Origin: a virus
Lineage: Duplodnaviria > Caudoviricetes
Virus record (IMG/VR): IMGVR_UViG_3300040770_000247
Location: 1 to 61,491 of that record
DNA: 61,491 nucleotides
Direction: 5' to 3' (one strand)
The position numbers were made by a program, and so were the translations under genes. Below, in pieces: positions 30,001-61,129 of the stretch. Every line of letters begins with the position of its first letter. Within the stretch, counting starts at the first letter, position 1. Below the pieces are notes generated by a model. The model saw nothing but the letters and a program-made list of their open reading frames with translations, had not been told where the DNA came from and did not search any database.

Positions 30001-33000
30001 GGTACTTGAAGCAGTGCTGCAAATTCCTCACTCGCCACACCCAAAGCCACAAACTTAGCCTGACCCTCAATACTCGGGTCGCCAAACACACCTTCCCACT
30101 TATCAACAGGCATGGTGTCCTTGAGGCTTTGACGCATCTCCATAAACAGGTCACCGATGTTCCGGTTAACCAGATACGCATTGCCTGCTTCCAGTGAGGT
30201 CAGTGTGGCTGCGTGCACCTGCTCTGCTACAAACAACTCCTGATCACTCAGGGTAAAGGGACCCGTCTGTAGGTCAGAAGCAAAGGGGGCTACACCTGAG
30301 TTCATGGCTTGAGTAAACATGTCCTGAGCATCCGTGGCGTAGTACTCAGCCAACGCCCCTTTATCAACCCCCAGTGGCCCCACAATCGCATCCCCAATGT
30401 TACGCAAGGCATTAGAGAGTCGATCTAAGTGCTCGGTACTGTGGGCTTTACCCGCATCAGCCAAACCATTAAAGATCTCTTCAGTGCTAAGGCTGAGCAT
30501 CGCAGCAGCACCTATGTGAGGGTGACTGGCTGCAAAAGCTGTACCCTTTGGCTGACTAGCGACTTCATCAAACATCTGCACAACATGGAGGTTGAGTACT
30601 GCAAGTGCATTGGTTTCTGCTGCAGTCGCAGGCTTGTTAGTCAGCAGGCTGATCAACTTGCTGGCAAAGCTTTTCAAGGTCTCCTTGATGGTTTGCCCAA
30701 TAGTCGATTTGTACTCCACCCCCATCATGAATGACTGGAACTTGGAGTTGGTCATGCCATACGAAACCAGCTCGTGAACATCCGTGAGCATGCGGGCAAA
30801 CTTGCCCTCTGTGTCTTTGGCAATAAGCGCAAGACGCAGGGCTTCCAAATCCCTATAGGCAGTATTAGCAGCTGTCCCTTTAGCAGCGAATTGCCCATCA
30901 GCGATAGCACTCTGCAGAGCCAGGTGAAGCAGCTCATGCACCACCATTTCAGACGTTACATTGGTATGCCCTTTGTTGGTTCCACGAATAAAGACAGTGA
31001 CGTTACCCTGCTCATCAGTCGACACCCAGCCATTAGCTGTTTCCAGGCTACGGTCATGTTCCATACCTGGGGTGTGGTTGTAGGTCGATTCTTTTTCGTT
31101 GTCTTTGGTAACCCAAACAATCGACACATTGGGATCAACCACCTTTTTGATCATTCTCAATAAGGTGCGGTAGCCAGTGCCTTTGGTACCTGCTGCTTTA
31201 GTGTGCTCATCCATGAATGCCAGCAGCGAGCCTACGGTGTTGCCGTTAGCGTTCTGGATGAAGTAGTTAACCAGATCAGCGTGTGTGCCTGAAGACACCG
31301 GCGCAGGCTGTGGGGAGACCTCTACAGGTGCCTGCTCAACGTTCTGTTTACTGCCTGTCTTCACAAAAGCGTTTACTTCAGTGAGGGGCATGCCGTTAGT
31401 AAGCGCCTCCAGAACATCGTTCAGGAGGTATTCATCCTCGTACAGAGCCTTTTGTACCAAAGGTTCTACAGGTACTGAGAACTCTTCAAGAACCTTCATT
31501 GCATCAACAAGAGCAGGGTCTACCGGAACCTTTGCACGCTCTTCAGCTTTCGCTGCCATCTCTGCACGGTCTTCTTCTGTGAGGGTATACGTGCCATTTT
31601 CATTGGAGTACTGGTCAATCACCGCTACATCAGAGAATCCCTTAAATTTAGCAACGTCAGCCTGCTTACCTGCAACAACGATGTTGTGAACAGTACTGGC
31701 CAAATGCCCCTTAAGGTGCTTCTTCGTGAGTTTATAAACAAACGGATGCAGCGTAGTTATTGAAGTCAGCATCGCCTTTGAGAAAGAAGCTTTCAGTGCT
31801 TTCAGGTCTTCAGCAAACTCCTCAGCAGTACGAGGGTCACCCTCCTCCTGCACACTGTTCTTTTTCAGGTACTCAGCAAAACCAGCCAACACACGCCCTG
31901 TAGTATTCGCCATCTGGGTATACGGGGAGTACTCGGACAGTACCTTAAAGGTGGCTTGGTTAAGGTTAGTGGCAATGCTGTCAAGAAACTTAGCAGCACC
32001 AAAGTGAGCATCGTGAGCGTTCAGTACATCGTTTTCTTTTGCGGCTGCAACCAGAGAGATAGCGGAGTCTGTGGACTGGGTAAGGTTGGCGTCCGTGCTT
32101 ACACCTGGAGGAAGGAGCGTGAACTCTGACGCATAAGCACGAAGGGTCTTCTTCTTACCGTTGATTGCTACTTTGGTGTCTGTCAGAAAAGCAGCCTTAG
32201 TGGAGGGCACAGTACCTTTAGCAGCAAGGAACACCGAGCTGTCGTAGGTATCATCATTCTGAGAGAACCAGGTATGTACAGCAGGTTCCATGTGTTTCAG
32301 TCGAGCACGAATCCGATCCAGTTGGTTCTTGGTAAGCGACATCAACGGAGTCTTGGCTTCGTTCTTGGCAACAGGCAGTGTTCCCAGGTTAATCATAGTA
32401 CGGGTGTACTTGGTCACTTCCAGGTCAAAGGCTGCTTTGTAAGCAAAGAAAGCCACGTTAGCTGCAGAGTTCAACCTGCGCTTTTTCTCTACCGTTTCAC
32501 CCAACACTTTATCCAAGGCTTCACGAACAGGTTTCTTAACCAGGTCTGCAAAGTTCTCTTGAATGGCCTTCTCTTCTGAACTGTTGAATACATGCTTCAT
32601 CGCATCCGCGTGGGAGATGTTGACAGGCAACCTGCTTTTTACAGGCAGGAACGTGTTGATCATCTCAATCAACTGAGGAAGCTTCAGTTTAGGATTGCTG
32701 TTAGGGCCTGCTTTACTGACCAGCTCGTAGTACTTCTCAATGAACTGACCGCCCAAGTCGGCTACTGCTGTGGCAGTGCCCGCGCTGTAGTTCAGACCGG
32801 TAACGGGGGTCTTTACAAACTTACGGCCTACAGAATCAGAGAGGGAGTCTGCCTCCTTACCGCTGAGGATTGAGAACAGTGCCCGTGCCATACCTTTTTT
32901 ACTGGGATCTTTGATCAAGCTCTGATTGATAAATTCACGCAGTACAGTGGCTACTTTTTCATAGGTGTCTTGGTTGACACCCCCTGCTTTCCACTCAGCA

Positions 33001-36000
33001 AAGCTTTTTGCTGCGTTGTCGTACAGGCCATAGATACCGCCACGTTCCAAGGCTTCGTTACCAAACACCCCGGCCATGGCTTGGGACAATATAACCCCGT
33101 TGGTTTTACCGTCCACCTCACCCATGAGCGAGACTGTTACCGTCGATTCTTCATTGAGCGGGGCCAGCTGCATTGCAGCAAGTGCAGCCAAGGCGTCGTA
33201 GGTGTGTAGGTTGTTTTCGCCCAGTTCAATGGCGTTCTGCAGGTCATTTTGATGTTCCATAGTGCTGTCTTCAAACGCACCACTAAGCATGTTCATCGCA
33301 GCAATACCCTTAACAATCGTGGGCTGCTTGACGAACGTATCAAAGTATTTGATGTTGTCTTTATTCAGTGACGCATCGGTCTTGTAGCCAAAACCCTCAA
33401 TGATACGAAGCTTGAGCATGTTAACTTCAGCTTCGTTATTCAGATCGTAGGTCTGTTCCCACGATTGCATACGCAGGACAAAGCGGACAATTTTACTCGT
33501 CTGTGGGTTCATATCGGTGTGGAGGATACCCACACGGAAATTACGCCATACATCCCGTGTCAGGTAGATAGGGGCGAACTTGTCAGCCATGTTGCTAACA
33601 AAGTTCAGTACCCCCTCCCAATCCTCCCGCATTGAGCCGTACTTACCTTCAAGACCGGGTAGTAGAGCAGCATGGGTGTTCTCGGTATTTACATCCTTGA
33701 TTCCAAAGATGGCCTCACGAACACCTGCATCCAATTGCTGCAGCAGGTCTACACGAGCCACATCAACGAATTCTGGCTTCTCGTTCTGAGTGGCTATCAG
33801 CTCTGCCTGGGTATCCGAAACAGTACGGTCGGTGTTGTTGATACGATCTTGGCCTTCCTTGGCAGGCTTAGTAGCAGCCGGTGGCTTAGTACGCTCCAAG
33901 CCAAACAGCTGTCCTACTACATCCTGGCTACCTTTATAGGCATCCTGAATACGCGTGATATTTTCGGCACCTGGGGTAAACCGAATGAGCTTGGTTTCCG
34001 CAAACAGGTTGATGTCCCCTTCACTGGAATACGCCTGTGAAAGGTAATCAGCTTTCTTGAACACCTGTTCAGTAGCCAAACTAGTCTCACTGCCCGCAGC
34101 TGTATCTTGCAGGTTGTAGAGCATACCCAGTGCAGCAAAACCCAGTGCCATTTCCATTTTGGCCTGGACATCCAGGTTGGTATCTCCTGGGGAACGCTCA
34201 ATCAAACCAAGGGCTTTAAATATCTCCTTACCCATTGTCAGTGCAGCGTAGGCCTCTGTATCTACGGCGTACTCAAGCTCCGTGTACACATCGGCAGGTA
34301 GGTAGGCATCTTCATGAAAACCAAGCATCCGATTGATGCGGCTTTTGCTTTTACGGGCATTGCCTGAAGTAGCCCCACCTATGTAAGAAAACACGGAAGC
34401 AGCAATGGCTGTCTTGACGTTCTCTTCTACATTACCTGCCAGGTCCATAAAGTACTGGAAGTAATCGTTGTAGCGAAACTCCGAGAACTCGTCGGGCTTG
34501 CCCTTGTCACGCTTAGGGACAATGCCTGAATCCAGCGCCTTAAACATTGATGCACCCAGCTCTTTGAATAGAGCCAGGGCCAACGATTGACCTTCTTTAA
34601 CTTCACCTGATTCTAGAAAGGACTCGACTTTTACATTTCCCGCTACCCAATTCGTAAAGAAGTCTTTCACCTCTACCAAGGGATTACGGTTGGTGGTTTC
34701 GTTTGTATCCTTCTTAGGGCTACGCTGCTTAAAGAAGAAGTGCAGCAGATTGGTTGCCCGATACCAAGCAGTGTCCTTAATCGTGCGTGCGTCTTCTTTG
34801 GCTTGCCCTTTAGTACGCTCACCGAGACCGTCCAGTGCCCCTGGCTCAGGAACATAGGGGGCTACTTCTGCTGTGGTTTCTGCTTCGTATCCACTCTCAA
34901 AACTTTCAACAGCTGCCGCTTCCGCTCCCTCAGACTGTTCACTTGTTGATCCAAATTCTTCAACAGATCCTGCTGCAGTTCCGGTGTTGTTTTCGTAGTC
35001 ATAATCAGTTCCGTAGTTGGCGTCATTCAACGCATCGTTTATGGAGTCTAAGTAGCTGTCATCAAGGGCGTCTGCCTGATCTTCTAGTTCACTTACCTGC
35101 TCAGCCAGATCTGCTGCAATAGCCTGCTTTGCCTCAATCTCAGCAGCCAAGGCAGCGTCAGCCTCATCTTTTGCCTGATCTATCTGGTCTTGAATACGCT
35201 GGGCTTCTGCTTCCAGATTCTGTTGGTTTTCGGCTGCAGACTCGGAGGCATAAAGTGTAGTGTCGCCATTGAGCTGCCCTTTAATGGCTTCCTTGAACCA
35301 GGACAGCTGATCGCCGCTTTGGATTACGTGGTTGGGAATGTACCCATCATCCTCAAGCATACGCAACAAGCCGTCCGGGGACTGAGCCCGATCCGTCTTG
35401 TTGAACAGGGAGTTCACAAAAGGAAGCTTGTGGTTGGCTGTGGTATCCCCGGTTATGTCCAGTCGGTCAGCTACACGAATCCCACCTAACCTCACCACAT
35501 AATCCAGTAAAGAATCTCGATCACGGTTCGGCTTCTTACGGGCACCTTTAGGCTTAGAAGGTCCAACCTTCTTCTGCTTAGCTGCCTGTGCCTTGATCTT
35601 TACTGGTTTAGCTGGCTTAGGTGCAGGCTGCTCAATAAGTGCAGGAGCCTCTATCTCGGCTTCCACGACCTTAGGTGCAATAGGCACTACCTTGGCTGCT
35701 TTAGTCTTCTTGATGGGCTTAGGGGTAGTCGGGGCAACCGAAGCGGTATCAGGAGCATCCATCAGTTCCTGCATAGCTGCCTGTACAGAGTTCAGGTATT
35801 TGGACTCTGCCTGCACACGGTTACGCAGGGCAAAAGAAGCCTTGGTGATCTTTAGTGTCTTGTCCTTACCATAGATAACAGTCCTACTGTCGTTATCTCC
35901 AGTCAGTAAAGCCAAGCCTTCTACGATGGAAGTGAGCTTTTCCTGGTGGCCTGCTGCGAACGTCGAGAGACTGCCCATCAGAGCAGTGGCTTTTTTGCTA

Positions 36001-38165
36001 TCCCCTGCAGCTACAGCTGCACGGATACCTGAGGCGTACTCCTTACCACCGATATGACCTTCATTTGGATTACCGTGAATGATGTCATTACGGACTTGGA
36101 TGGAAGCCTTCTTTTCACGGTTGGCCTGCTGATTGATGATCCCATCTTCCAGGGCTTTAGCTTCCATCATCTTGCTATGACTGGTTGCAAGCTTGCGCAC
36201 GTAAGCCCGCTCTTGCAGGCTTAGGCCATTGCTCCCATTGTCTGCCAGCTGGGTAAGAGTGGCGCTGTCTACAGACTCTGGAGAGTGCATAGCGAGCGTC
36301 ATAGCCTTACGACCAGCAGCAGTAGCTGCCGCTACTTCAGCGGTATCTGTGGCATCTGCAACAGGTGCCAGGGCTGGAGTGATCTCGGAAAGTGCAGTAG
36401 TTATTTCTTCTTCTGATTGCTGAGTTTTGGTTGAATCACCAAAGAGCTTAGCCATGTGACCTGACAACTCATCTACTTCCTTGCTCATGATTGAAGCTGC
36501 ACTTTGTTGCTTCAGATTATCTGCTTTCTCCTGCGGCGAAAGGTTCTTATAAGAGACAATCTCTGCCTCAACTGCGTCTATTTTTGCCTGCACTGATGCG
36601 ATGCTTTCAGGTGTGGTTTTTGTGGCTAAGACTTCCTTAGCCTTTTCAAGGAACTCCTGCTTAACCTGCAGGGTTTCATCGTTAACAATACCTGTCCGGG
36701 TTTTGACCTCCTCACTACGAGCAGCCTGCTCTTTTTGGATCTCTTGTACTTTGGCAAGATTGCTGGCCACTTCTTCTGCAGTAGCACCCTCACGGTTGCT
36801 GTGTCCCATCAGAGCCTGGATTGCCAGATCAGGGCGATACTCTGTTTCGTCGTTTAGGAGGATGCTTACATCACCTGTCTTCGACGACTCATTAAACACA
36901 GCACGCTCTTCAATACTCATGCGCGCTTCGTTGGGTTTAGGGGTCTCCTTGGCCCGTGCAGTACCAGCACCACTTAAGGCACCCATACCTGCGCCTGTCA
37001 GCATGCCTTCGGCCATTGCTTTGCCTAAGCCTTCTGTCGCATCACGCTCCAGAGCCAGGTTCTTAAAGATGGTTTCTTCACCTGTTTGCAGGAGTTCTTC
37101 GCCACCCTCGATAACACCCTTACCAAGGACATTACCTACCAGGCCGTGGGTGGATTTACCCAAGGAACCACTGACGACTGCAGTATCCAGGTCATTACCT
37201 AAACCCGCTTTTGTGGTGACCTTAGCCCCCAGACGGGAAATAGCTGTACCCACTACACCTGTGAAACCAGCAGCAGCTAATTGCTTTAGGCTGAGCAAGC
37301 CATCTTCAGTCTCTTGGCGAATTCCCTCAGCAGCTGAACCTGCCATGGTTGCACCCTCACCAATGGCACCTGCTAGTGCTGTGCTTTTAACCAGGCCTGC
37401 AGCACCTAGTGCCTTACCGTAAGCACCCCCCAGTACGATAGAGGGTAATGATTTAGTAATGCCGTGGCTGATAGAGGAGGGATTAACCAGCATAGTCATC
37501 GCTGTATTGATAAAGCCTTTAGCTTCATCTACCGACTTAAACACACGATTTTGGTTATTGGAGTACATCTCGTTAAACATGGTGTGAGCTTGTTTAGGGT
37601 CAAAGCCGTTTTCTTCAGCCCACTTACCTACATAGCCGCCCGAAACCATGTTACCTAAACCAACCACACCTTCTAATGCGGACACAGATCCATCGGCAAA
37701 CGAAACCCCATAGTCTGTACTGCGCCGTACAAAACTCTGTGGTATCTCGTTATTGTCATCAATGGGCAATGCGGAATCAAAACTAAACTTACGCAACTCA
37801 TTAGCGATTTCTTGGCCTTTATTGTATTTAGCCAAGTCCTCGTTTTCATTCATCTGGTATGCAGAATAGCCATCAGCAACATGTGCCCCTGTTTTAGCCC
37901 AGATCTTAGATACATCGTTCACTGCAGCAATCGGGGTATTGATTACCCCAGCAGCAAGACTGTTTCGATCAAGCCCTAACTTACCTGTAAAGGTATTGTT
38001 CTGGTGATCTCGAAATGCTTTAAGCGCGTCGACTTGCTGTCTGATTGTGTCACTGGCATTAGCTACATCAGTCAGCTTTTCTTTACTGACTTGATACAGA
38101 GACTTTTCTGAGGAGGATGTGGAAGGACTAAGTAATGCGGCTTTTGCTTCTTCTAAAGTTGGCAC
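27039..38165 (-). CDS. Virion-encapsidated RNA polymerase (N4 gp50-like)
   Basis: 3708 aa; T7-like motifs EVDGKTNG, RKFVKTPVTGLNY, NAHDA; apparently Cys-free; N4 synteny. Confidence 0.97.
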   Translation of the reverse strand: MPTLEEAKAALLSPSTSSSEKSLYQVSKEKLTDVANASDTIRQQVDALKAFRDHQNNTFTGKLGLDRNSLAAGVINTPIAAVNDVSKIWAKTGAHVADGYSAYQMNENEDLAKYNKGQEIANELRKFSFDSALPIDDNNEIPQSFVRRSTDYGVSFADGSVSALEGVVGLGNMVSGGYVGKWAEENGFDPKQAHTMFNEMYSNNQNRVFKSVDEAKGFINTAMTMLVNPSSISHGITKSLPSIVLGGAYGKALGAAGLVKSTALAGAIGEGATMAGSAAEGIRQETEDGLLSLKQLAAAGFTGVVGTAISRLGAKVTTKAGLGNDLDTAVVSGSLGKSTHGLVGNVLGKGVIEGGEELLQTGEETIFKNLALERDATEGLGKAMAEGMLTGAGMGALSGAGTARAKETPKPNEARMSIEERAVFNESSKTGDVSILLNDETEYRPDLAIQALMGHSNREGATAEEVASNLAKVQEIQKEQAARSEEVKTRTGIVNDETLQVKQEFLEKAKEVLATKTTPESIASVQAKIDAVEAEIVSYKNLSPQEKADNLKQQSAASIMSKEVDELSGHMAKLFGDSTKTQQSEEEITTALSEITPALAPVADATDTAEVAAATAAGRKAMTLAMHSPESVDSATLTQLADNGSNGLSLQERAYVRKLATSHSKMMEAKALEDGIINQQANREKKASIQVRNDIIHGNPNEGHIGGKEYASGIRAAVAAGDSKKATALMGSLSTFAAGHQEKLTSIVEGLALLTGDNDSRTVIYGKDKTLKITKASFALRNRVQAESKYLNSVQAAMQELMDAPDTASVAPTTPKPIKKTKAAKVVPIAPKVVEAEIEAPALIEQPAPKPAKPVKIKAQAAKQKKVGPSKPKGARKKPNRDRDSLLDYVVRLGGIRVADRLDITGDTTANHKLPFVNSLFNKTDRAQSPDGLLRMLEDDGYIPNHVIQSGDQLSWFKEAIKGQLNGDTTLYASESAAENQQNLEAEAQRIQDQIDQAKDEADAALAAEIEAKQAIAADLAEQVSELEDQADALDDSYLDSINDALNDANYGTDYDYENNTGTAAGSVEEFGSTSEQSEGAEAAAVESFESGYEAETTAEVAPYVPEPGALDGLGERTKGQAKEDARTIKDTAWYRATNLLHFFFKQRSPKKDTNETTNRNPLVEVKDFFTNWVAGNVKVESFLESGEVKEGQSLALALFKELGASMFKALDSGIVPKRDKGKPDEFSEFRYNDYFQYFMDLAGNVEENVKTAIAASVFSYIGGATSGNARKSKSRINRMLGFHEDAYLPADVYTELEYAVDTEAYAALTMGKEIFKALGLIERSPGDTNLDVQAKMEMALGFAALGMLYNLQDTAAGSETSLATEQVFKKADYLSQAYSSEGDINLFAETKLIRFTPGAENITRIQDAYKGSQDVVGQLFGLERTKPPAATKPAKEGQDRINNTDRTVSDTQAELIATQNEKPEFVDVARVDLLQQLDAGVREAIFGIKDVNTENTHAALLPGLEGKYGSMREDWEGVLNFVSNMADKFAPIYLTRDVWRNFRVGILHTDMNPQTSKIVRFVLRMQSWEQTYDLNNEAEVNMLKLRIIEGFGYKTDASLNKDNIKYFDTFVKQPTIVKGIAAMNMLSGAFEDSTMEHQNDLQNAIELGENNLHTYDALAALAAMQLAPLNEESTVTVSLMGEVDGKTNGVILSQAMAGVFGNEALERGGIYGLYDNAAKSFAEWKAGGVNQDTYEKVATVLREFINQSLIKDPSKKGMARALFSILSGKEADSLSDSVGRKFVKTPVTGLNYSAGTATAVADLGGQFIEKYYELVSKAGPNSNPKLKLPQLIEMINTFLPVKSRLPVNISHADAMKHVFNSSEEKAIQENFADLVKKPVREALDKVLGETVEKKRRLNSAANVAFFAYKAAFDLEVTKYTRTMINLGTLPVAKNEAKTPLMSLTKNQLDRIRARLKHMEPAVHTWFSQNDDTYDSSVFLAAKGTVPSTKAAFLTDTKVAINGKKKTLRAYASEFTLLPPGVSTDANLTQSTDSAISLVAAAKENDVLNAHDAHFGAAKFLDSIATNLNQATFKVLSEYSPYTQMANTTGRVLAGFAEYLKKNSVQEEGDPRTAEEFAEDLKALKASFSKAMLTSITTLHPFVYKLTKKHLKGHLASTVHNIVVAGKQADVAKFKGFSDVAVIDQYSNENGTYTLTEEDRAEMAAKAEERAKVPVDPALVDAMKVLEEFSVPVEPLVQKALYEDEYLLNDVLEALTNGMPLTEVNAFVKTGSKQNVEQAPVEVSPQPAPVSSGTHADLVNYFIQNANGNTVGSLLAFMDEHTKAAGTKGTGYRTLLRMIKKVVDPNVSIVWVTKDNEKESTYNHTPGMEHDRSLETANGWVSTDEQGNVTVFIRGTNKGHTNVTSEMVVHELLHLALQSAIADGQFAAKGTAANTAYRDLEALRLALIAKDTEGKFARMLTDVHELVSYGMTNSKFQSFMMGVEYKSTIGQTIKETLKSFASKLISLLTNKPATAAETNALAVLNLHVVQMFDEVASQPKGTAFAASHPHIGAAAMLSLSTEEIFNGLADAGKAHSTEHLDRLSNALRNIGDAIVGPLGVDKGALAEYYATDAQDMFTQAMNSGVAPFASDLQTGPFTLSDQELFVAEQVHAATLTSLEAGNAYLVNRNIGDLFMEMRQSLKDTMPVDKWEGVFGDPSIEGQAKFVALGVASEEFAALLQVPTKKLSAIRGENYLEKLISVMEAVLNFALQKLDRIHSGQLASVKLNKLARQLVGIEAKNRAALKSKAASAYSDGVDTSSKIEQGIRRQIDNIGKAQIFRKGNNYARAVGVTLSMSAQHRVPEIFQQMMVFRDKLVQEKHGILAGIANEMLASGPSKAIQENLFLLTKGIERARRTMFDNTKNILTQEFANKGKELTKPVKEAMTKVFMRTDLQVLTKDSAYSLQDIRNLMDSAANIEAAIKAEQAKMVGSQVQDIVNDAQDTAIYMVTNGATHKNVAKNAHNVTRRFGYNSKAMKAAEAHAEVNTPIVDRIISLYALKFSAPADVVLVKGVMDSEANRSAGNGVQFLLGMHSLMVKQSFEDAFEGDPSQMVKGFTASVVNPHRELYVGTFGEAEEMKRLGFKMETKLDKALEDSDTEQRVLYYRRYGGLSPRVSGSISYSAKKSAGSRKEGAIYDPVTGTVNRVNLARVRRATKAIAGDINALNGRGANYDASRVETKATNRIPIFAHDGTASGYRYEMLHDREAKLLERNLDFTVVMASLSASLVDKKESPKNNKTIVEALYAQYLADFASNPKAYVEISENSKDPEHRELYAMLPPELKKHQQAVWGDTPMVVSYDSLDIVFGYRKLSITDAFEKEETARTAAEKIVVKALEKMMPEITKMVTPFRDKNGDMPATVTQLRYAEAAWQGVVSETKDFLVIKSVGTLVGNIQSNISLLLVSGVNPAQLVKSHIVALRGVLNYRRDSTELHKLEAMVSSGYPLPNSADVQVRIKYLTGMLESNPVKKLIDAGMLPTIVEDVDPENDLYSLKAGLSNYLEGKIGGNKVGQAAVTVAKTLYMAHDTPLYQLLSHTTQLSDFVGRYTLYQHLTTRDEKRMTHTEALDRAMKSFVNYDLPSHRAIQYGNDMGILMFTKYYMRIQQVLFTLFKEEPAKMLTVMAFGQLTGGVSVLTDSGILNNVGNPLKTGAFMFPGVLDESIVAQTIGAAIP

Positions 38166-55043: not shown

Positions 55044-55085
55044 TCCATGGCCATCCTTAGGGGTGGCCTTATTGCTTTTAAGAGC

Positions 55086-55106
55086 GCAACTACGTTGCAA
55101 AGTCAG
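55086..55106 (+). promoter_or_regulatory. vRNAP hairpin promoter 3
   Basis: GCAAC-TAC-GTTGC-AAAGTCAG. Confidence 0.75.
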
Positions 55107-55138
55107 GGCGCTCTTGCCCTCTCATTAGGAGTCGCCTC

Positions 55139-55384
55139 ATGGCCACTAAAGCCGAGCTGCAAGTTGAAGTAACCCGTCTCATGGCTGTTGTTGAGCAACT
55201 CCGTGAGGATGTTGCCCAATTCAGTCACGGTGAAGATAACTTCATCAGTGAGATAATGGCCCTCAATGCCCAACTGGCAGAGAAGTCCGAGATGGTTGTT
55301 GTTGCTCCAACCGCCTCACGCAAGCAGCTAATGGCTGCTGCGAAGGCTCATGCAATGACCACAGGCCGCTGTGTGCGTGTCTGA
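55139..55384 (+). CDS. Early coiled-coil protein
   Basis: AGGAG RBS; heptad pattern. Confidence 0.7.
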   Translation: MATKAELQVEVTRLMAVVEQLREDVAQFSHGEDNFISEIMALNAQLAEKSEMVVVAPTASRKQLMAAAKAHAMTTGRCVRV

Positions 55385-55433
55385 AAATGGGGGAGCTTTG
55401 CTCCCCTTTGCTTTATTACATAAGGAACTTCGT

Positions 55434-55691
55434 ATGCGCGTAGTCATCCATGTACCTGATTCACTGTTTCCAGCCGAGTACACCTTAGAAGGTGAGATCG
55501 ACGTACTCGTTGAAAAGGAAGTTGAGTACCTACTCAACAGGGGTTCTCAGGACTTTAAAAAAGGCCTGCTGCTGTGCCGAGAGTTGGGCATTGCTGTGCA
55601 TGAGTACTACCCGGAATCGGGCAATGTAGGTTCTCAACATAAAACCAACATCCAGTGCCCTAAGGCACATCCAGATATCTGGAATAACTAA
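55434..55691 (+). CDS. Early hypothetical protein
   Basis: AAGGA RBS before MRVVIHVPD; followed by a terminator. Confidence 0.6.
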   Translation: MRVVIHVPDSLFPAEYTLEGEIDVLVEKEVEYLLNRGSQDFKKGLLLCRELGIAVHEYYPESGNVGSQHKTNIQCPKAHPDIWNN

Positions 55692-55742
55692 CACTAACCA
55701 CCTTCGGGTGGTTTTGTTTTTAAAAGCACACAAGCTAAAGGC

Positions 55743-55763
55743 GAGCCTACGGCTCAAAGATAG
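55743..55763 (+). promoter_or_regulatory. vRNAP hairpin promoter 4
   Basis: GAGCC-TAC-GGCTC-AAAGATAG. Confidence 0.75.
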
Positions 55764-55941
55764 GAGCAAGGGCAAGAGCAACAGAGCCCCTTGTTTCCTC
55801 TTCGCAGATTGATCCCTGCTTAGTACTACGGCTTTGATCAAGCACCGGTGGATTGGTAATCCACTGCGACCCTACTGCCTAACCAGCCAAGCCAGTGGAA
55901 TTCTGGTAACAACCCCTTCTTCGGAAGGGGTTTGTTCTTTT
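55760..55941 (+). ncRNA. Candidate structured early non-coding RNA
   Basis: Own hairpin promoter and TTCG terminator; no ATG; three internal stems. Confidence 0.5.
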
Positions 55942-56025
55942 AAAAGCACACAGTCAAAAGCGCTGTGCCCTCTCTATCGCGTACACCCTTTAAAGCCAGT
56001 CAGTCAGTTACCAAAGATCAGAGGC

Positions 56026-56046
56026 GGCGCTACGCGCCAAATACAA
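56026..56046 (+). promoter_or_regulatory. vRNAP hairpin promoter 5
   Basis: GGCGC-TAC-GCGCC-AAATACAA. Confidence 0.75.
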
Positions 56047-56094
56047 GGCTACAAGCGAATGACTCGTTTGGCCAAAACTACTGGAGATACACCC

Positions 56095-56367
56095 ATGTCT
56101 TTTAACACCGGCGTACAGCGTAACCAGAACACCAATGCCGCTCAGCAGAATGACAGCTGGAAGGCTCAGGCTTTCATCAATATCTATGTGCCTACGCCTG
56201 AAGGCGGTAAGCGCAAGTTGGGTTCGATCCCCCTGAAAGACAGCAAGCAGTTCGATGCCAAGATGATTGAGCGTCTGAACCAAGAAGGCGGTCTGGAGGC
56301 ATTGCGTGATGCCCTGATCATCGATTTCCAAATGGCAGATAAAGAAGTCTCTTCAGTAGGCTTCTAA
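56095..56367 (+). CDS. N4 gp1/gp2-like early protein (possible RNAP II cofactor)
   Basis: GGAG RBS; KAQAFINIYV...GSIPL motif recalls N4 early proteins. Confidence 0.6.
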   Translation: MSFNTGVQRNQNTNAAQQNDSWKAQAFINIYVPTPEGGKRKLGSIPLKDSKQFDAKMIERLNQEGGLEALRDALIIDFQMADKEVSSVGF

Positions 56368-56423
56368 GCCTCTTTCCCTGCACCCATTCGGGTGTGGGGT
56401 TATTTATTCACAAGGAAGAAACC

Positions 56424-56660
56424 ATGGAATCTCCCAACGTATACACACGCCATACCAAGCTGAATAGCATCCTCTTGGATGGCTGGAGCATGGGCTTTCA
56501 ACCTGACCAGACACTGCGCGAAGCCAGTGCAGCAGGCTATGCACTCTGTGTTGTAGAGCCTAAACTAAATGCTTACTGGGGCCGTCTTGATGCTGAAGTG
56601 AATGCGTTCATGAAGGCACATGAACCCACGTACGCACCTGATCCATTCCCCTTCAAATAA
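56424..56660 (+). CDS. Early hypothetical protein
   Basis: AAGGAAGAAACC-ATG initiation region. Confidence 0.65.
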   Translation: MESPNVYTRHTKLNSILLDGWSMGFQPDQTLREASAAGYALCVVEPKLNAYWGRLDAEVNAFMKAHEPTYAPDPFPFK

Positions 56661-56670
56661 GGAAGAAACC

Positions 56671-57035
56671 ATGAACCAGCAAGTTGCTGTACTGACCAAA
56701 CACTTCACTCAGTGGATGCAAGAAAGTGTCTTTGAATTTGATGAAGACTTTCGTTTCAGGCAAGCAAAACGTCTGCTGCTGGCCAATGGGGTAAGTCTCA
56801 GTATCCAAGCCAGTCAGTACGCTTACTGCTACCCAAGAGAGATCCTTCCTTACGCACAGTACAGTACAGTAAGTTTGAAGTGGGCTACCCCTCTGAAGTA
56901 ATAGAGGCTCTGATGCCCTATTGCGAAGATTCTAATAGGCCCACTGAAACAGTCTATGGGTATGTACCACTTGAGGTACTGGACGCTTACATAGCCTCTG
57001 TAGGCGGTGTGACAGGGTATGCAGAACCAGGTTAA
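56671..57035 (+). pseudogene. Conserved phage protein frameshifted by an extra ACAGT unit
   Basis: SLSIQAS..YCYPR in one frame and FEVGYPS..LMPYCED..PTETVYGYVP..GG in another; (ACAGT)3 at 56856-56870. Confidence 0.75.
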
Positions 57036-57139
57036 CCAGAGCCCCGATTAAGGGGCTCATTCATTTCAGTGAGATAGGCAGAAGCGTCCCGCTTTGGGAT
57101 GACGTGGGCCTATGCCCGGCATTCAGTAAGGAAGCCAGC

Positions 57140-57403
57140 ATGACTTATCTAGTACTGGCAGTTCACATGAACTCCCGACAACTGTTCCCCATTGAGCTCC
57201 ATGGCAAATACATATCCGCTGCCTATTCAGCTGCACTTCGCATTTCCACATCAAACGCACAGACATACCTTTACAAACCTGATGGTAAGAACTGGTACTC
57301 GTACAGGCATGAACCTGGCCGAGAACTTATAAACCGCTGGTCTTTTATCCATGAATCAGAAATACCCGTAGAACTCAGAGCCATAGCCCTACTTCACAAT
57401 TAG
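57140..57403 (+). CDS. Small early protein, shared C-terminal motif family
   Basis: Ends IPVELRAIALLHN. Confidence 0.7.
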   Translation: MTYLVLAVHMNSRQLFPIELHGKYISAAYSAALRISTSNAQTYLYKPDGKNWYSYRHEPGRELINRWSFIHESEIPVELRAIALLHN

Positions 57404-57413
57404 GAGAACACCC

Positions 57414-58325
57414 ATGAATGCTCCCGTACGCATGCTGCCTACTGATATTCAGTTGGCCAATGAATACCGTTTCAACCGTAAGCACGTAGATGGCTACTTG
57501 AAGCGTGAGCTGCTGGAGCATCAAGACAATGCAGCCATGCTGGCCATGGGTGTTGAGCTCATCAATGAATGGCGTAGCCAAGAGTATTACGCCAGTAAGA
57601 ATGCACGACTCGCACAGCTTGAGCTGTTGGATATTGCAGACCTTGTTCTTCAGATATTCTTGCAGTGTGGCTACTGCCAGAAGGAAGAGTTACTGACTTC
57701 TGTATCCGCCCAGCTGGCGGGACGCCTGCGCTTCAGTGATAAGCCAGAAGCCCTAACTACCATTGCTGAAATGCTCGCTGTGCTGTGTCAGACAGATGCC
57801 TTTGACATCAACAAAGCAGACCGTCAGGCCTCGCTGATGCTGGTGTCGAACCTCCACTTCAGTGAGGAGGTGAGGGGCTTTATCTATAATGCGACGTTCT
57901 TGCCTCCACTTGTCTGTGTGCCTGAACTGGTCACCAACAACCACCAGAGTGGCTACCTGACCCACAACGATTCGTTGATCTTGGGTAAAGGGAATCACCA
58001 CGATGGTGATGTCTGTCTGGACGTTATCAACCTGCAAAACCAGATCCCTCTTAGCCTGTCTCTGGACTTCCTGAAGTCCTGTGAGATGGAACCTAAAGAG
58101 GTGCTTACCACCGGTGAGCAGCTGGAGCAGTGGCACCAGTTCAAGACCCAAGCCAATGAGCTGATGATCCTTCTGGTCAACCAGGGCAACCGTATACACC
58201 TCACCCACAAGGTGGATTGCCGCGGTCGTCTGTACTCGGTTGGCTATCACATCAACACGCAAGGTACTGCCTTTCAGAAGGCAGCCCTTGAGCTGGCAGA
58301 TGAAGAGATCGTGGAGGGTGTATGA
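57414..58325 (+). CDS. RNA polymerase II subunit 1 (N4 gp15-like)
   Basis: LPPLVCVP, SLILGKGNHH, THKVDCRGRLYSVGYHINTQG. Confidence 0.92.
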   Translation: MNAPVRMLPTDIQLANEYRFNRKHVDGYLKRELLEHQDNAAMLAMGVELINEWRSQEYYASKNARLAQLELLDIADLVLQIFLQCGYCQKEELLTSVSAQLAGRLRFSDKPEALTTIAEMLAVLCQTDAFDINKADRQASLMLVSNLHFSEEVRGFIYNATFLPPLVCVPELVTNNHQSGYLTHNDSLILGKGNHHDGDVCLDVINLQNQIPLSLSLDFLKSCEMEPKEVLTTGEQLEQWHQFKTQANELMILLVNQGNRIHLTHKVDCRGRLYSVGYHINTQGTAFQKAALELADEEIVEGV

Positions 58326-58594
58326 AGCGTAAAGAACTGGTCATCTGGACAGAAGACGGGCACCTGACTGGCCGAGTGTTTGATAGTTCAGGTGCTGTGG
58401 ACGAGTTCCTTGGAGGGTGGTCAGAGCCTGCAACAGAACCCATTTGGAATCTGGTTGTTGGTGAACGTTGGTACACCAGCAAAAACCCGAAAGGAGGCCT
58501 CTATCAACCCAGTGATGGCCCTGACTATCTGTTCACAGTATCACCTGAAATGATGCCTCCAGAAGTCAGGGCCTTGGCCCTGCTGCTGTTATGA
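58322..58594 (+). CDS. Small protein, shared C-terminal motif family
   Basis: Ends MPPEVRALALLLL. Confidence 0.7.
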   Translation: MKRKELVIWTEDGHLTGRVFDSSGAVDEFLGGWSEPATEPIWNLVVGERWYTSKNPKGGLYQPSDGPDYLFTVSPEMMPPEVRALALLLL

Positions 58595-58854
58595 GCAGTA
58601 TCGAGTACCTGTATTGGTACGAGGGTGATGAGCTCAAACACTTTGTAGGTACGTTCAGGGAAATCGCTTTTACCTGCGCAGAAAACAAAGCAGCGGTTTA
58701 CTTCTGCTACTCCATCCACATGCAATTCATCCTTCCGTGGTACCGCCTTGGCCCAGGCTTCCGAGTAACAGAAACCATTAAACGGTTGGAGGATGTACCT
58801 CCCGACATACGTGCCCTGCACCTACTCATCTACCGAGGTGACTATGGAGAATAG
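58591..58854 (+). CDS. Small protein, shared C-terminal motif family
   Basis: VPPDIRALHLL. Confidence 0.7.
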   Translation: MSSIEYLYWYEGDELKHFVGTFREIAFTCAENKAAVYFCYSIHMQFILPWYRLGPGFRVTETIKRLEDVPPDIRALHLLIYRGDYGE

Positions 58855-58856
58855 CC

Positions 58857-59066
58857 ATGTACCGCGTCTATAAGAACGATGAGCTGTACCTTGAGAATAC
58901 GTACTACCCCTCCACAAAAGGGGAGTGCTACGTCTACAGCGCTCAAAATAATTGGTGGACATACCAACCGCCTAGCAGTGCTGTCGCAAGACTAATACCT
59001 GCATACGATGTGCCTGCCGTGTACCGGGCAATAAACCTACTTCTCTGCCAAGGAGATACCAAATAA
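58857..59066 (+). CDS. Small protein, shared C-terminal motif family
   Basis: VPAVYRAINLLL. Confidence 0.7.
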   Translation: MYRVYKNDELYLENTYYPSTKGECYVYSAQNNWWTYQPPSSAVARLIPAYDVPAVYRAINLLLCQGDTK

Positions 59067-59080
59067 CCAATAGGTGAACC

Positions 59081-59302
59081 ATGCCCATCTACCTGTTTGA
59101 ACCAGATAAGCCTATGCGTCCGGTTCAGCGACTGCCTAACAAGAGTGCCATTGCTAAAAGCTACGCCTATATAGTGTTCTTGCCCACTGGCGTAACAACC
59201 TTCTGTGTGTTCTCCCCTAGCTCAGAGGGCTGGCTGGAAATCAAGCCTGAAGGTGTTCCACCTGAATACCGGGCTATGGCCCTGCTGATCCCTACCTCCT
59301 AA
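59081..59302 (+). CDS. Small protein, shared C-terminal motif family
   Basis: VPPEYRAMALL. Confidence 0.7.
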   Translation: MPIYLFEPDKPMRPVQRLPNKSAIAKSYAYIVFLPTGVTTFCVFSPSSEGWLEIKPEGVPPEYRAMALLIPTS

Positions 59303-59314
59303 GGAATAACCCAC

Positions 59315-60550
59315 ATGAATACCTATACCGGATTTCAGTATCTGTTGATTGACTGCGCCAACGCATTTGATCTGGACAAGCTCCTGTTTGAACAGCGTAT
59401 CGAGTGGGCTACCAGCAACCTTGATCGTTTGGAAGACATCGTTGACCAGGCTACCGTAAAGCCGCTATTCATCAAGGCCACCCAGGCCATCCGTAAAGCT
59501 CAGAACCATCAGCCTACTGGTCACCTTGTGGCCATGGATGCTGTGTGCTCAGGCATGCAGATCATGAGTGCTATCACCGGCTGTGTCAGTGGTGCTACTG
59601 CCACTGGCATGGTTGACCCAGAACGCCGTGCTGATGCCTACACCGAAACCACTGGTGTAATGGCCGGTATCTTGGGTGAAGCGGTTGAAGTGCCGCGTGC
59701 TGATGTAAAGCAGTCTGTTATGACGGTTCTTTATGGAAGCAAGGCTGAGCCTAAGGCCATCTTTGGCGAAGATACACCTGCACTGGCTGCGTTCTATCAA
59801 GCCATGCAGATCATCGCACCAGGAGCCTGTGAGCTGCTTCAGGACCTACTGGACAGCTGGCAGTCCTTTGCCTTGAACCATGAATGGCAACTGCCTGATG
59901 GCTTCAATGCCAAGGTCAAGGTCATGCAGATGAACGAGTGCCGTATCGAGGTGGATGAACTGGATCATGCGTCTATGACGTACCAGTACTACACCAACGA
60001 AGGCAGTGAGAAAGGTCTCAGCAATGTGGCCAATGTCATCCACTCGATCGATGGATTCATCCTGCGTGAAATGACCCGTCGCTGTAACCACCACAACAGC
60101 ACCACCGTGATTGCTGATGGTGTGTTTGAAACTGAGCTGCTGGCCCGTAGCTTGGGTGAGATGCGCAAGTTCAGTGACAACGAAGATGTGCAGTACTACG
60201 TCGACCTGTATGAAGCCAGTGGTATGGCTTCAGTGGTCATCCTGCCGCACCTGAATGCACAGAACGTGAGCCAGCTATCTGACGCTCACCTACGTGCACT
60301 CAAGGCACTGACCAACACCATGCAGGCTTACAAGCCTTTCCCTCTGGTGACTATCCACGACTCGTTTGCAGCACACGCTAACAACGTCAACTGGGTACGC
60401 CATTGGTACAAGGAGATCCTGGCTGAACTCGCAGACTCAGTGATTCTGGATCATGTATTGAGCCAGATCCATGGCATGCCAGGCCACTTCACTAAGCTGA
60501 GCAACAACCTGTCTCAGTTGATCCGCAACTCAAACTACGCCCTCAGTTAA
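59315..60550 (+). CDS. RNA polymerase II subunit 2 (N4 gp16-like)
   Basis: MDAVCSGMQ (motif A), RADVKQSVMTVLYGS (motif B), ANVIHSIDG, TIHDSF (motif C). Confidence 0.95.
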   Translation: MNTYTGFQYLLIDCANAFDLDKLLFEQRIEWATSNLDRLEDIVDQATVKPLFIKATQAIRKAQNHQPTGHLVAMDAVCSGMQIMSAITGCVSGATATGMVDPERRADAYTETTGVMAGILGEAVEVPRADVKQSVMTVLYGSKAEPKAIFGEDTPALAAFYQAMQIIAPGACELLQDLLDSWQSFALNHEWQLPDGFNAKVKVMQMNECRIEVDELDHASMTYQYYTNEGSEKGLSNVANVIHSIDGFILREMTRRCNHHNSTTVIADGVFETELLARSLGEMRKFSDNEDVQYYVDLYEASGMASVVILPHLNAQNVSQLSDAHLRALKALTNTMQAYKPFPLVTIHDSFAAHANNVNWVRHWYKEILAELADSVILDHVLSQIHGMPGHFTKLSNNLSQLIRNSNYALS

Positions 60551-60587
60551 ACAGGTGCCCTCCGGGCACTAAGTGAATTGGGACCTT

Positions 60588-60620
60588 GCCTCACTCCTTC
60601 GGGAGTGGGGCTTTATTTTG
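60588..60620 (+). terminator. Rho-independent terminator
   Basis: GCCTCACTCC-TTCG-GGAGTGGGGC-TTTATTTT. Confidence 0.75.
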
Positions 60621-60656
60621 TCTCAGCCATCTTCAGTTGATAGAGCAGAGACAGTC

Positions 60657-60893
60657 ATGGGTGCATCACACTTATTCAGAGGAGATGAACTGATCTATTC
60701 CCACTACGAGTGGGGTGCTGGAGATGCCAGTCGATTGGCTGAAGATGGGGATATTCTCCTTTATGGCTACTTCACTGAAGGACAGTTATACCGCTGTCAT
60801 GGCTGCTGGGGTGACCCCTTGGAGAATCCAGAACTACTTAAGCACTACCAACTACTGGCCTTGTTACAGGCACACCCTGGAGGACAGTCATGA
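60657..60893 (+). CDS. Small protein, shared motif family (divergent member)
   Basis: HLFRGDEL start; LLKHYQLLALL end. Confidence 0.6.
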   Translation: MGASHLFRGDELIYSHYEWGAGDASRLAEDGDILLYGYFTEGQLYRCHGCWGDPLENPELLKHYQLLALLQAHPGGQS

Positions 60894-61129
60894 TCAGTCG
60901 CTATCTATTCCGTGATGGGGTGTTGTCATACAAAGGGACTTCTTTAAGTACTTTTGATGGAGTCTCTGCAATAGGCGACTTCATGCTTTGTATTCAACAT
61001 CCCATTGTGGGCACCAAACACAATTGGGTAGCTTTTCGCATGGTCTTTTTTGATCCGGGGTTCGGTTGGCACCCACAACCTGAGTCAGTCACCCAAGAAC
61101 TCCGCGCACTACTCCTCCTGCAGCAATAG
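60890..61129 (+). CDS. Small protein, shared C-terminal motif family
   Basis: YLFRDGVL start; VTQELRALLLL end. Confidence 0.7.
   Translation: MISRYLFRDGVLSYKGTSLSTFDGVSAIGDFMLCIQHPIVGTKHNWVAFRMVFFDPGFGWHPQPESVTQELRALLLLQQ

What the first reader, a model, noticed from the sequence alone, without database searches (positions are those of the whole stretch)
57140..61129. Family of seven divergent small proteins sharing a C-terminal VPxExRAxxLL helix
Seen: IPVELRAIALL (57140), MPPEVRALALL (58322), VPPDIRALHLL (58591), VPAVYRAINLL (58857), VPPEYRAMALL (59081), LLKHYQLLALL (60657, weaker) and VTQELRALLLL (60890). Several also begin with YLFxxDxL-like strands, while the middles are unrelated and aromatic-rich. 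They are interleaved with the RNAP II genes. Inference: an expanded paralog array with a constant docking, oligomerisation or targeting helix and variable faces, e.g. a modular anti-defence or adaptor system binding one common partner. I know no described function.
Basis: partly seen in the sequence, partly recalled or inferred. Interest (0 to 1): 0.72.

Follow-up and report, generated by a model that had tools for sequence, protein, structure and literature searches.

The report
Small-protein family around phage RNAPII genes
Seven small early genes packed around the second RNA polymerase genes of an uncultured N4-like phage are old, fast-changing copies of one undescribed protein family, whose job is unknown but could be tested in the laboratory phage LIT1.

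Summary
The window is an N4-like (Schitoviridae) phage record. Seven + strand ORFs of 69-90 aa flank and split the RNAP II subunit genes. All seven belong to one protein family, the weak seventh included.

It is a whole-domain family, not only a C-terminal motif. AlphaFold2 gives a five-stranded beta-meander capped by the C-terminal helix (pLDDT 90 and 82). The conserved core is F6, L11, Y28, Y30, W41-Y42, I54 and [DE]-V-P-x-E-h-R-A-h-x-L-L. There is no Pfam or PHROG hit and no clear PDB fold relative.

The paralogs are old: each groups with other phages' proteins. They evolve 5-10 times faster than the neighbouring RNAPII-S. In related metagenomic phages they are gained, lost or swapped gene by gene. 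One slot is the exception: the member just upstream of RNAPII-L was present in every member-carrying locus that showed that position.

Distant relatives sit in the same positions in Pseudomonas phage LIT1 (gp18, gp20, gp22) and probably in Littlefix and LUZ7-type phages. N4 has none.

Best reading: a scaffold family of dispensable, host-directed early proteins. The helix is part of the fold rather than a free docking peptide. An RNAPII-linked role for the constant slot member is the main rival. Function remains untested.

The parts
57039..57058 (+). GC-rich hairpin followed by T-rich tail, just upstream of g57140. It is terminator-like and could also be a vRNAP-type hairpin promoter.
57140..57403 (+). 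g57140, family member (87 aa), directly upstream of RNAPII-S; ends ...IPVELRAIALLHN.
   Evidence: (leave-one-out rank 1, E 0.0034). Absent in related contigs (joint 57129->57403).
57414..58325 (+). RNAP II small subunit (N4 gp15 / RNAP1-like); context gene.
   Evidence: phrog_2166 E 1.7e-96
58322..58594 (+). g58322, family member (90 aa). Its start overlaps the RNAPII-S stop (ATGA).
   Evidence: (E 0.0014). Absent in L020 and in related contigs (joint 58320->58590).
58591..58854 (+). g58591, family member (87 aa). Its start overlaps the g58322 stop.
   Evidence: E 0.026; E 1.6e-21
58857..59066 (+). g58857, family member (69 aa).
   Evidence: E 0.0023. Replaced by another subtype in L020.
59081..59302 (+). 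g59081, family member (73 aa) in the constant slot 12 nt upstream of RNAPII-L. This is the protein that was modelled.
   Evidence: E 3.9e-6; pLDDT 90.4
59315..60550 (+). RNAP II large subunit (N4 gp16 / RNAP2-like); context gene.
   Evidence: phrog_2051 E 2.7e-147
60588..60611 (+). Strong hairpin plus T-run after RNAPII-L. It lies inside the alternative GTG-60573 reading, which favours ATG 60657 as the start of g60657.
   Evidence: The orthologues P0022 and P0031 also start at the equivalent ATG.
60657..60893 (+). g60657, divergent family member (78 aa); ends ...LLKHYQLLALLQAHPGGQS.
   Evidence: pLDDT 81.8, same order of elements. Replaced or absent in related contigs.
60890..61129 (+). g60890, family member (79 aa). 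Its start overlaps the g60657 stop.
   Evidence: (E 0.051, rank 1). Orthologue at L001:7035-7274.

Best explanation
The seven ORFs are real, co-transcribed early genes of an N4-like phage and are ancient paralogs of one undescribed small-protein family. Each protein is a single compact domain: a five-stranded antiparallel beta-meander capped by a C-terminal alpha-helix. The shared [DE]-V-P-x-E-h-R-A-h-x-L-L motif is that helix with its N-terminal cap. Together with the N-terminal strand and the Y-x-Y and W-Y strands it builds the fold, so it acts as a scaffold (inferred) rather than as a free docking peptide. On this scaffold the beta2-beta3 loop and neighbouring segments vary freely. The array arose by duplication in and beside the gap between the two RNAP II subunit genes, a known hot spot for inserted genes. 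Most copies are dispensable cassettes that turn over quickly. I infer that they are host-directed early accessory proteins, for host takeover or counter-defence, each paralog with its own target surface. Shown here: family, fold prediction, age of the paralogs, turnover, evolutionary rate and position. Inferred: the scaffold role of the helix and the host-directed function. The targets are unknown.
For: Family and motif statistics.

Coding and operon structure: overlapping ATGA junctions, plausible ribosome-binding sites, and hairpins that bound the unit.

Whole-domain conservation: F6, L11, Y28, Y30, W41-Y42, I54, V59, P60, E62, R64, A65, L68, L69.

Fold: confident models with the same order of elements for the best and the weakest member (pLDDT 90.4 / pTM 0.77; 81.8 / 0.74). 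The two models share 5 top-50 neighbours in BFVD.

Old paralogs: the 7 window copies need 7 changes on an 82-row tree, and each has its own orthologues in metagenomes.

Fast evolution against L020: identity 46-73 % and dN 0.23-0.51, versus 91 % and 0.05 for the adjacent RNAPII-S.

Cassette-wise loss or replacement in contigs about 90 % identical over the RNAPII genes: g57140, g58322, g58322 to g58857 together, g58591, g60657, and g60657 with g60890; see also L020.

Copy number: 1-7 per locus among carriers, and none in 12 other N4-like loci or in N4.

RNAPII without spacer proteins: N4 gp15 and gp16 are adjacent, and LUZ7 RNAPII was reconstituted from its two subunits and bound Drc (PMC7145618, section 18 read).

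Against: No experiment or computation here shows any host target, toxicity or counter-defence activity.

In each of the 11 member-carrying loci that show both RNAPII genes, a member lies between them, ending 16-204 nt upstream of RNAPII-L. In the 12th carrier (L030) a member starts right after RNAPII-S before the contig ends. No related contig skipped g59081. That speaks for a polymerase-linked role of at least that copy.

Within orthologous groups the most constrained parts are the N-terminal strand and the helix plus the tail beyond it. That is also what a conserved binding surface would look like.

R64 (43 R, 9 K, 5 Q of 57) is conserved and probably exposed.

Burial of the helix is inferred from confidence values, not measured, because no coordinates were available.

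Both models used family alignments, which biases the weak member towards the family fold.
Confidence: 0.55

Rival explanations
1. RNAP II-linked factor. The member kept immediately upstream of RNAPII-L (the g59081 lineage; LIT1 gp22 position), and perhaps its paralogs, binds the phage's heterodimeric RNAP II. It would act as an assembly, specificity or switching factor for middle transcription.
For: In all 11 carrier loci that show both RNAPII genes a member lies between them, 16-204 nt upstream of RNAPII-L. This includes 3 of the 4 new loci that were fetched through the family and not through the polymerase (L027, L029, L033). In the fourth new locus (L030) a member follows RNAPII-S directly at the contig end. 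No related contig skips g59081. The same positions are occupied in LIT1 by gp18 and gp20-22. The genes are tightly packed or overlap with the polymerase genes.
Against: 12 of 24 N4-like loci, and N4 itself, have no member, and several have no room for a gene in the gap. LUZ7 RNAPII was reconstituted from two subunits and bound Drc (PMC7145618 section 18). The window already has a Drc-like cofactor gene. Tandem duplication at an insertion hot spot explains the clustering without any functional link. Most copies are individually dispensable in nature.
Confidence: 0.2
2. The constant N-terminal strand and C-terminal helix of all paralogs dock on one common partner, such as a host hub protein or protease, while the variable middle recruits different cargo.
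For: Within orthologous groups the N-terminal strand, the helix and even the tail after it are nearly invariant, while the middle has up to 8 states per column. R64, L68 and L69 are conserved across paralogs that share only about 22 % identity.
Against: The conserved positions are mainly hydrophobic or helix-capping, as expected for a fold core. The helix is modelled with pLDDT 93 inside a compact domain. No partner is known. The pI of the seven ranges from 4.7 to 9.0, which shows that the surfaces differ but says nothing about a shared site.
Confidence: 0.12
3. Self-assembling blades. Each protein is a single propeller-blade-like unit, and copies, alike or different, assemble into a ring or another oligomer.
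For: The family profile picked up FG-GAP repeat proteins through its strand region. There were 10 large hits; the 9 scanned with Pfam all carry FG-GAP repeats. The model aligns to single Kelch/propeller blades (Z 2.6-3.1, 40-54 residues).
Against: These scores are weak, and the sequence scores are summed over repeats. No Pfam FG-GAP hit was found for any member. Copy number varies from 1 to 7, and cassettes come and go singly. Oligomerisation was not tested.
Confidence: 0.03
4. Chance motif in non-coding or unrelated ORFs.
For: Pairwise similarity between the paralogs is very weak.
Against: Leave-one-out profiles, shuffles, conserved orthologues in many metagenomes and confident concordant models all speak against it.
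Confidence: 0.01

Closest known systems
Pseudomonas phage LIT1 (Litunavirus) gp18, gp20, gp22 (phrog_8585, phrog_8597, phrog_8144; all 'unknown function')
   Same: Small early proteins in the same positions: gp18 directly upstream of RNAP1, and gp20-22 between RNAP1 and RNAP2. hhalign against the family profile gives 93.9 %, 80.5 % and 84.9 %, with C-terminal VPPEIRAQSLL-type motifs. The 18 other small LIT1 early proteins tested score at most 2.1 %, and gp21 scores 11.8 %.
   Different: The relationship is only detectable profile-to-sequence and mostly over the C-terminal half (35-49 columns). None of the 57 family members hits these PHROGs directly at E <= 0.01. No function is published for them: paper search found none, and no paper on LIT1 gp18-22 was read.
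'G7C-type' organisation of N4-like phages: spacer genes between RNAP1 and RNAP2 (PMC5418858, passages of section 10 seen)
   Same: The two RNAP II subunit genes are separated by inserted genes. The paper reports zero to eight spacer genes.
   Different: The paper describes the spacers as unrelated genes or homing endonucleases. Here the spacers are paralogs of one family, and the family also sits on both outer flanks of the polymerase genes.
Small ORFan arrays of Pseudomonas phages Littlefix (gp49-56) and LUZ7/AM.P2 (gp9, gp11, gp21; AM.P2 gp067, gp068, gp078)
   Same: Weak profile matches: Littlefix gp56 63 %, gp52 42 %, gp55 30 %, gp51 27 %, gp49 21 %; LUZ7 gp9 29 %, gp11 28 %, gp21 21 %; AM.P2 gp068 71 % over 69 columns. 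Both models hit a 78-residue AM.P2 protein in BFVD with TM 0.66 and 0.59.
   Different: All scores are below secure thresholds (Foldseek E 0.17 or worse). Membership is probable for AM.P2 gp068 and open for the rest.
Drc (LUZ7 gp14) / N4 gp2, the known small early RNAPII cofactors
   Same: Small early proteins of the same operon region. They are the only small early proteins of these phages with a shown RNAPII link (PMC7145618, abstract and section 18 read).
   Different: Unrelated to the family: the window's own Drc-like protein scores 0.1 % against the family profile and is a separate gene at 56095-56367.

Membership tests
Undescribed RNAPII-flanking small-protein family (this window; LIT1 gp18/gp20/gp22) | Profile similarity over the domain, including the C-terminal [DE]VPxEhRAhxLL helix | tested here: met
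   Leave-one-out HMMs put 6 of 7 members at rank 1. g60657 reaches E 0.0022 and hhalign 55.7 %. LIT1 gp18, gp20 and gp22 score 80-94 %.
Undescribed RNAPII-flanking small-protein family (this window; LIT1 gp18/gp20/gp22) | Position next to or between the RNAP II subunit genes, in the early operon | tested here: met
   All matches in the complete records G001, G002 and G009, and all matches in the window, lie beside RNAPII. All 12 carrier loci have a member directly after RNAPII-S or upstream of RNAPII-L.
Undescribed RNAPII-flanking small-protein family (this window; LIT1 gp18/gp20/gp22) | Common fold: five-strand meander plus C-terminal helix | tested here: met
   Two AlphaFold2 models have the same order of elements. 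Caveat: both used family alignments, and only 2 of the 7 proteins were modelled.
PHROGs phrog_8585 / 8597 / 8144 (LIT1-type) | Direct HMM match of the window's proteins | tested here: not met
   0 of 57 family members match any of these at E <= 0.01. The only PHROG hit is phrog_27435, E 0.0041, to g57140.
FG-GAP / beta-propeller repeats (PF13517, PF01839) | Pfam HMM match and tandem blades forming a propeller | tested here: not met
   No Pfam hit for the 7 proteins at E <= 1 or for the 57 members at E <= 0.1. Each protein holds a single unit. The FG-GAP proteins matched only the strand part of the profile, with scores summed over 2-6 stretches.
YodL-like domain (PF14191), a lead from the protein atlas | Pfam HMM match or a clear structural match | tested here: inconclusive
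   The atlas rows have TM 0.55-0.56 and are 'under the bar'. There is no Pfam hit, and no YodL structure is listed.
Drc / N4 gp2 RNAPII cofactors | Sequence or profile similarity to Drc | tested here: not met
   The window's Drc-like protein scores 0.1 % against the family profile. LUZ7 gp14 scores 0.4 % and N4 gp2 0.2 %.
Known anti-defence proteins (anti-CRISPR, anti-restriction and the like) | Similarity to a characterised anti-defence family, or a shown activity | not tested
   No anti-defence library was available. The Pfam, PHROG and PDB searches named none.

The most novel reading that the evidence does not exclude
The copy kept in the constant slot just upstream of RNAPII-L (g59081 here, LIT1 gp22 by position) is a previously unrecognised third component or regulator of the heterodimeric N4-type RNAP II. 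Its paralogs would be interchangeable variants that retune the polymerase, or couple it to host factors. On this reading the family is a modular set of polymerase accessory factors rather than generic ORFans.
Probability: 0.12. Interest if true: 0.8.

Novelty: new variant of a known kind. Interest (0 to 1): 0.5.

Why it matters
Early-region ORFans are where phages keep host-takeover and counter-defence tools, and most are singletons that cannot be analysed. It has a confident fold model without a known relative, a clear signature, and a fixed genomic address beside RNAP II in several Schitoviridae lineages. It also has probable members in the tractable Pseudomonas phage LIT1. That turns 'hypothetical proteins' into a testable question: what does a phage gain from one to seven versions of one scaffold next to its middle polymerase? 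It also refines the published 'spacer genes between RNAP1 and RNAP2' picture, because in this clade the spacers are one family and not unrelated insertions.

Tried and rejected
Complex prediction of g59081 with RNAPII-S and RNAPII-L (alignments A4, A5, A2) ended as 'no answer', score 0.00, controls not folded. It is no evidence either way. No other complex was tried.

Expression: no RNA holder of the stretch was listed among the sequencing runs. Two runs labelled RNA-Seq are guesses and held only contigs. Nothing can be said about expression.

Fold searches found nothing clear. Foldseek against PDB had best E 0.59. VIA wide had best Z 5.1 (phage P1 connector chain, rmsd 3.1, 62 residues aligned), with gelsolin-like rows at Z 3.1-4.7. 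The VIA second look had best Z 3.7. A recalled resemblance to small 'strands plus C-terminal helix' DNA binders of the Sso7d/chromo type did not appear in any list. This shows no relation and excludes none.

A PDB sequence-profile search had best E 0.066. The protein atlas gave no usable feature hit for two queries. tblastn of P0070 against 50,697 phage records found nothing at E <= 0.1; the single match had E 0.8. N4: all 18 small early proteins score at most 7.1 % against the family, and there is no HMM hit. Enterobacter phage SABI locus: no convincing member.

No bacterial-genome or metagenome-contig scan was made. Notes of this scan near the window, or matching by sequence: none.


Full report
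WHAT THE WINDOW IS. The window is a whole IMG/VR virus record of 61,491 bases, estimated 83 % complete. It carries a 3,708-aa ORF on the minus strand (27039-38165). It also carries two + strand genes that match the N4-type RNAP II subunits: 57414-58325 (phrog_2166 'N4-like RNA polymerase', E 1.7e-96) and 59315-60550 (phrog_2051, E 2.7e-147). It is therefore an N4-like (Schitoviridae) phage. Its RNAPII-L is at most 49.9 % identical to that of any of 526 matching cultured-phage records, so the lineage has no cultured member in that collection.

THE OBSERVATION. Seven + strand ORFs of 69-90 aa lie at 57140, 58322, 58591, 58857, 59081, 60657 and 60890. One sits before RNAPII-S, four between the subunit genes and two after RNAPII-L. 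They are packed tightly: three junctions are ATGA overlaps and the other gaps are 2-14 nt, and most have a plausible ribosome-binding site. Strong hairpins with T-runs at 57039-57058 and 60588-60611 bracket the unit g57140 to RNAPII-L. The second hairpin lies inside the alternative GTG-60573 reading, which favours ATG 60657 for the sixth gene. The orthologues P0022 and P0031 start at the same place.

The core pattern RA[ILM]xLL occurs 7 times in all six frames of the window, 6 of them in these genes and each 2-8 residues before the stop. Shuffles give about one: mean 1.07, max 4 of 100. Shuffling residues within the seven proteins gives mean 0.004 against 6 observed. That pattern was chosen after seeing the data, so I also ran leave-one-out HMMs against all 703 ORFs of at least 40 aa. 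Six of seven left-out members rank first (E 3.9e-6 to 0.051); g60657 fails (rank 18, E 11). With a wider profile that excludes g60657 and its orthologue, g60657 ranks first (E 0.0022 against 0.031 for the next ORF). hhalign gives 55.7 % over 68 columns, while eight control small early proteins give at most 0.7 %. All seven are members, the seventh being a divergent one.

THE FAMILY BEYOND THE WINDOW. A profile search of 5.8 billion proteins found 32 cluster representatives at E <= 0.01. Five are the window's own. All are unnamed or 'hypothetical protein' from metagenomes, and all lack Pfam domains. An exhaustive HMMER search of 1.84 billion representatives gave 47 hits at E <= 0.001. Of these, 37 are proteins of 62-109 aa with the same ends. 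The other 10 are large proteins. The nine I scanned all carry FG-GAP repeats, and they matched only the strand part of the profile in 2-6 stretches. I treat those as repeat-summed look-alikes, not members. None of the 7 proteins, nor of 57 aligned members, matches a Pfam family. The only PHROG hit is phrog_27435 at E 0.0041 to g57140. In all I collected 82 distinct sequences.

WHAT IS CONSERVED. Across 57 members with mean column identity of 22 %, the informative columns are not only in the helix. They are F6, L11, Y28, Y30, W41 (46 of 57), Y42 and I54, followed by V59, P60 (50 of 57), E62, a hydrophobic residue at 63, R64 (43 R, 9 K, 5 Q), A65, L68 (54 of 57) and L69 (53 of 57) (numbering of g59081). 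Within two orthologous groups of 11 sequences each, the N-terminal strand and the helix plus its tail are almost invariant. The beta2 to beta3 region and the beta3-beta4 turn show up to 7-8 states per column.

FOLD. AlphaFold2 on g59081 with a 44-row family alignment gives pLDDT 90.4 and pTM 0.77. The elements are strands 3-6, 13-15, 28-33, 38-45 and 50-54 and a helix at 61-69, and the helix block has pLDDT 93. g60657 with a 57-row alignment gives pLDDT 81.8 and pTM 0.74, with the same order of elements plus a short helix in the variable loop. Both used family alignments, which biases the weak member towards the family fold. Only two of the seven proteins were modelled.

No solved structure matches clearly. 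Foldseek had best E 0.59. VIA wide had best Z 5.1 with rmsd 3.1 over 62 residues, which is below the background the tool itself quotes. The second look had best Z 3.7, with many single Kelch/propeller-blade rows. In BFVD no row reaches E 0.001. However, both models find the same small uncharacterised proteins of Pseudomonas phages, with five shared rows in the two top-50 lists. Among them is a 78-residue AM.P2 protein (TM 0.66 and 0.59) and proteins of Littlefix and 98PfluR60PP.

I read the motif as the helix with its N-terminal cap (D-V-P-x-E) and its packing face. That reading is inferred from the residue pattern and the confidence values. I had no coordinates with which to measure burial.

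AGE, RATE AND TURNOVER. On a quick maximum-likelihood tree of the 82 sequences the seven window copies need seven changes, and well-supported branches force at least six. Each groups with proteins of other phages, so these are old paralogs and not recent duplicates (few columns and many open forks).

Against the closest IMG/VR relative (L020), RNAPII-S is 91 % identical (dN 0.05, dS 0.33). In contrast g59081, g58591 and g57140 are 73, 55 and 46 % identical (dN 0.23-0.51, dS 0.74-1.13). L020 lacks g58322 and has another subtype in the place of g58857.

Contigs of related phages in four public runs (two DNA, two labelled RNA-Seq by guess), roughly 90 % identical over the polymerase genes, join precisely across single genes (min likeness 85, so these are relatives and not this phage):
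- g57140 is absent (joint 57129->57403).
- g58322 is absent (58320->58590).
- g58322 to g58857 are absent together (58319->59081).
- g58591 is skipped (58595->58859).
- g60657 is replaced by 284 other letters (60637->60893).
- g60657 and g60890 are absent together (60657->61128).
None of the listed joints skips g59081; only its middle diverges.

POSITION. Whole-record searches find 7 copies in the window. They find 2-3 in each of three complete relatives, and 3-5 in four incomplete ones, always beside RNAPII. They find none in 13 other N4-like records, in N4 or in AM.P2. Many training sequences came from these records, so detection is circular but location is not.

Those loci were first fetched through RNAPII-L, so I also searched IMG/VR with a family subgroup (A7). 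It returned 9 loci, 4 of them new. In 3 of the new ones the member or members lie between RNAPII-S and RNAPII-L. In the fourth (L030) the member follows RNAPII-S directly at the contig end.

A table of 24 loci gives 12 carriers. In the 11 carriers that show both genes, a member ends 16-204 nt upstream of RNAPII-L. The other 12 loci have no member in the gap, though L012 has one doubtful hit elsewhere. In the more distant relatives the gap is either too short for a gene or holds unrelated ORFs. [quoted passage not shown]

CULTURED RELATIVES. Earlier notes of this scan on other genomes pointed to LIT1, phCDa and Littlefix, and I tested the claim. Of 22 small LIT1 early proteins, gp18 (93.9 %), gp22 (84.9 %) and gp20 (80.5 %) match the family profile. 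gp21 gives 11.8 % and the other 18 give at most 2.1 %. gp18 lies directly before RNAP1, and gp20-22 lie between RNAP1 and RNAP2. They belong to phrog_8585, phrog_8597 and phrog_8144, all of unknown function.

Littlefix gp49, gp51, gp52, gp55 and gp56 score 21-63 %. LUZ7 gp9, gp11 and gp21 score 20-29 %. AM.P2 gp068 scores 71 % over 69 columns. N4 has none: 18 of 18 small early proteins score at most 7.1 %.

Four paper searches found no study of these proteins. The Drc paper does not mention LUZ7 gp9, gp11 or gp21. It describes RNAPII as a heterodimer, reconstituted from its two subunits, that binds Drc (section 18). Supplements were not consulted.

HOW IT MOST LIKELY WORKS. Four things are shown: a real, old, fast-evolving family of single-domain proteins; co-location in the early RNAPII operon; gene-by-gene dispensability of most copies; and one constantly occupied slot. 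From these I infer three things. The conserved strand-plus-helix signature is the scaffold. The variable loops carry the specificity. Most copies are host-directed accessory proteins (takeover or counter-defence) that arose by duplication at an insertion hot spot. Confidence is 0.55.

The main rival, at 0.2, is that at least the slot copy works with RNAP II. A complex prediction with RNAP II gave no answer and counts for nothing.

VERDICT. This is an undescribed family with no recognised fold relative, tied to the RNAPII operon of several Schitoviridae lineages, and it can be tested in LIT1. Interest is 0.5.

Noticed in passing
window 56095-56367 (+): A Drc-like gene, the ssDNA-binding RNAPII cofactor of LUZ7-type phages. 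It hits phrog_6271 at E 2.4e-13 (the library calls the family 'toxin'). BLASTP to the annotated Drc-like protein of AM.P2 gives E 6e-7. The top PDB sequence hit is 6qlc, but at E 0.37. A strong hairpin follows at 56376-56399.
   Followed up: partly
window 55049-57058 and 60588-60611 (+): The early region is dense in GC-rich hairpins with T-rich tails, many with TTCG loops: 24 terminator-like sites against 6.4 expected. In N4-like phages such hairpins can be terminators or hairpin promoters for the virion RNA polymerase. I did not tell them apart.
   Followed up: no
L016:3492-6061, L017:3491-6028, L033:6174-8460: In three related phages the RNAPII-L gene is split in two by an insertion of about 1-1.3 kb. 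In L016 the inserted 330-aa ORF has a NUMOD1 domain, which suggests a homing endonuclease. PMC5418858 reports the same kind of insertion in phage ZC08.
   Followed up: partly
L001:5317-5994: An HNH_3 endonuclease gene lies just downstream of RNAPII-L in a relative (E 1.6e-16). This is further sign that the neighbourhood attracts mobile genes.
   Followed up: no
window 57140-59302 versus L020: Synonymous divergence of the small genes (dS 0.74-1.13) exceeds that of the RNAPII-S gene lying among them (0.33). This hints at allele replacement by recombination rather than faster mutation alone.
   Followed up: no
P0049 (109 aa, metagenome protein): One family member carries two copies of the C-terminal half, each with a W-Y strand and a DVPxE...LL helix. 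It looks like an internal duplication of the unit.
   Followed up: no
profile positions 24-65 of the family (window 59150-59275 in g59081): The strand part of the family profile picks up FG-GAP repeat proteins, and the model aligns to single Kelch/propeller blades. The sheet is therefore blade-like. Whether this reflects descent or convergence is open.
   Followed up: partly
window 56424-57035 (+): Three further small early ORFs (56424-56660, 56620-56901, 56880-57035) have only weak PHROG hits of unknown function (phrog_38254 E 2.4e-6, phrog_24554 E 5.6e-6). The two that were tested (56424-56660 and 56620-56901) are not family members; 56880-57035 was not tested.
   Followed up: partly
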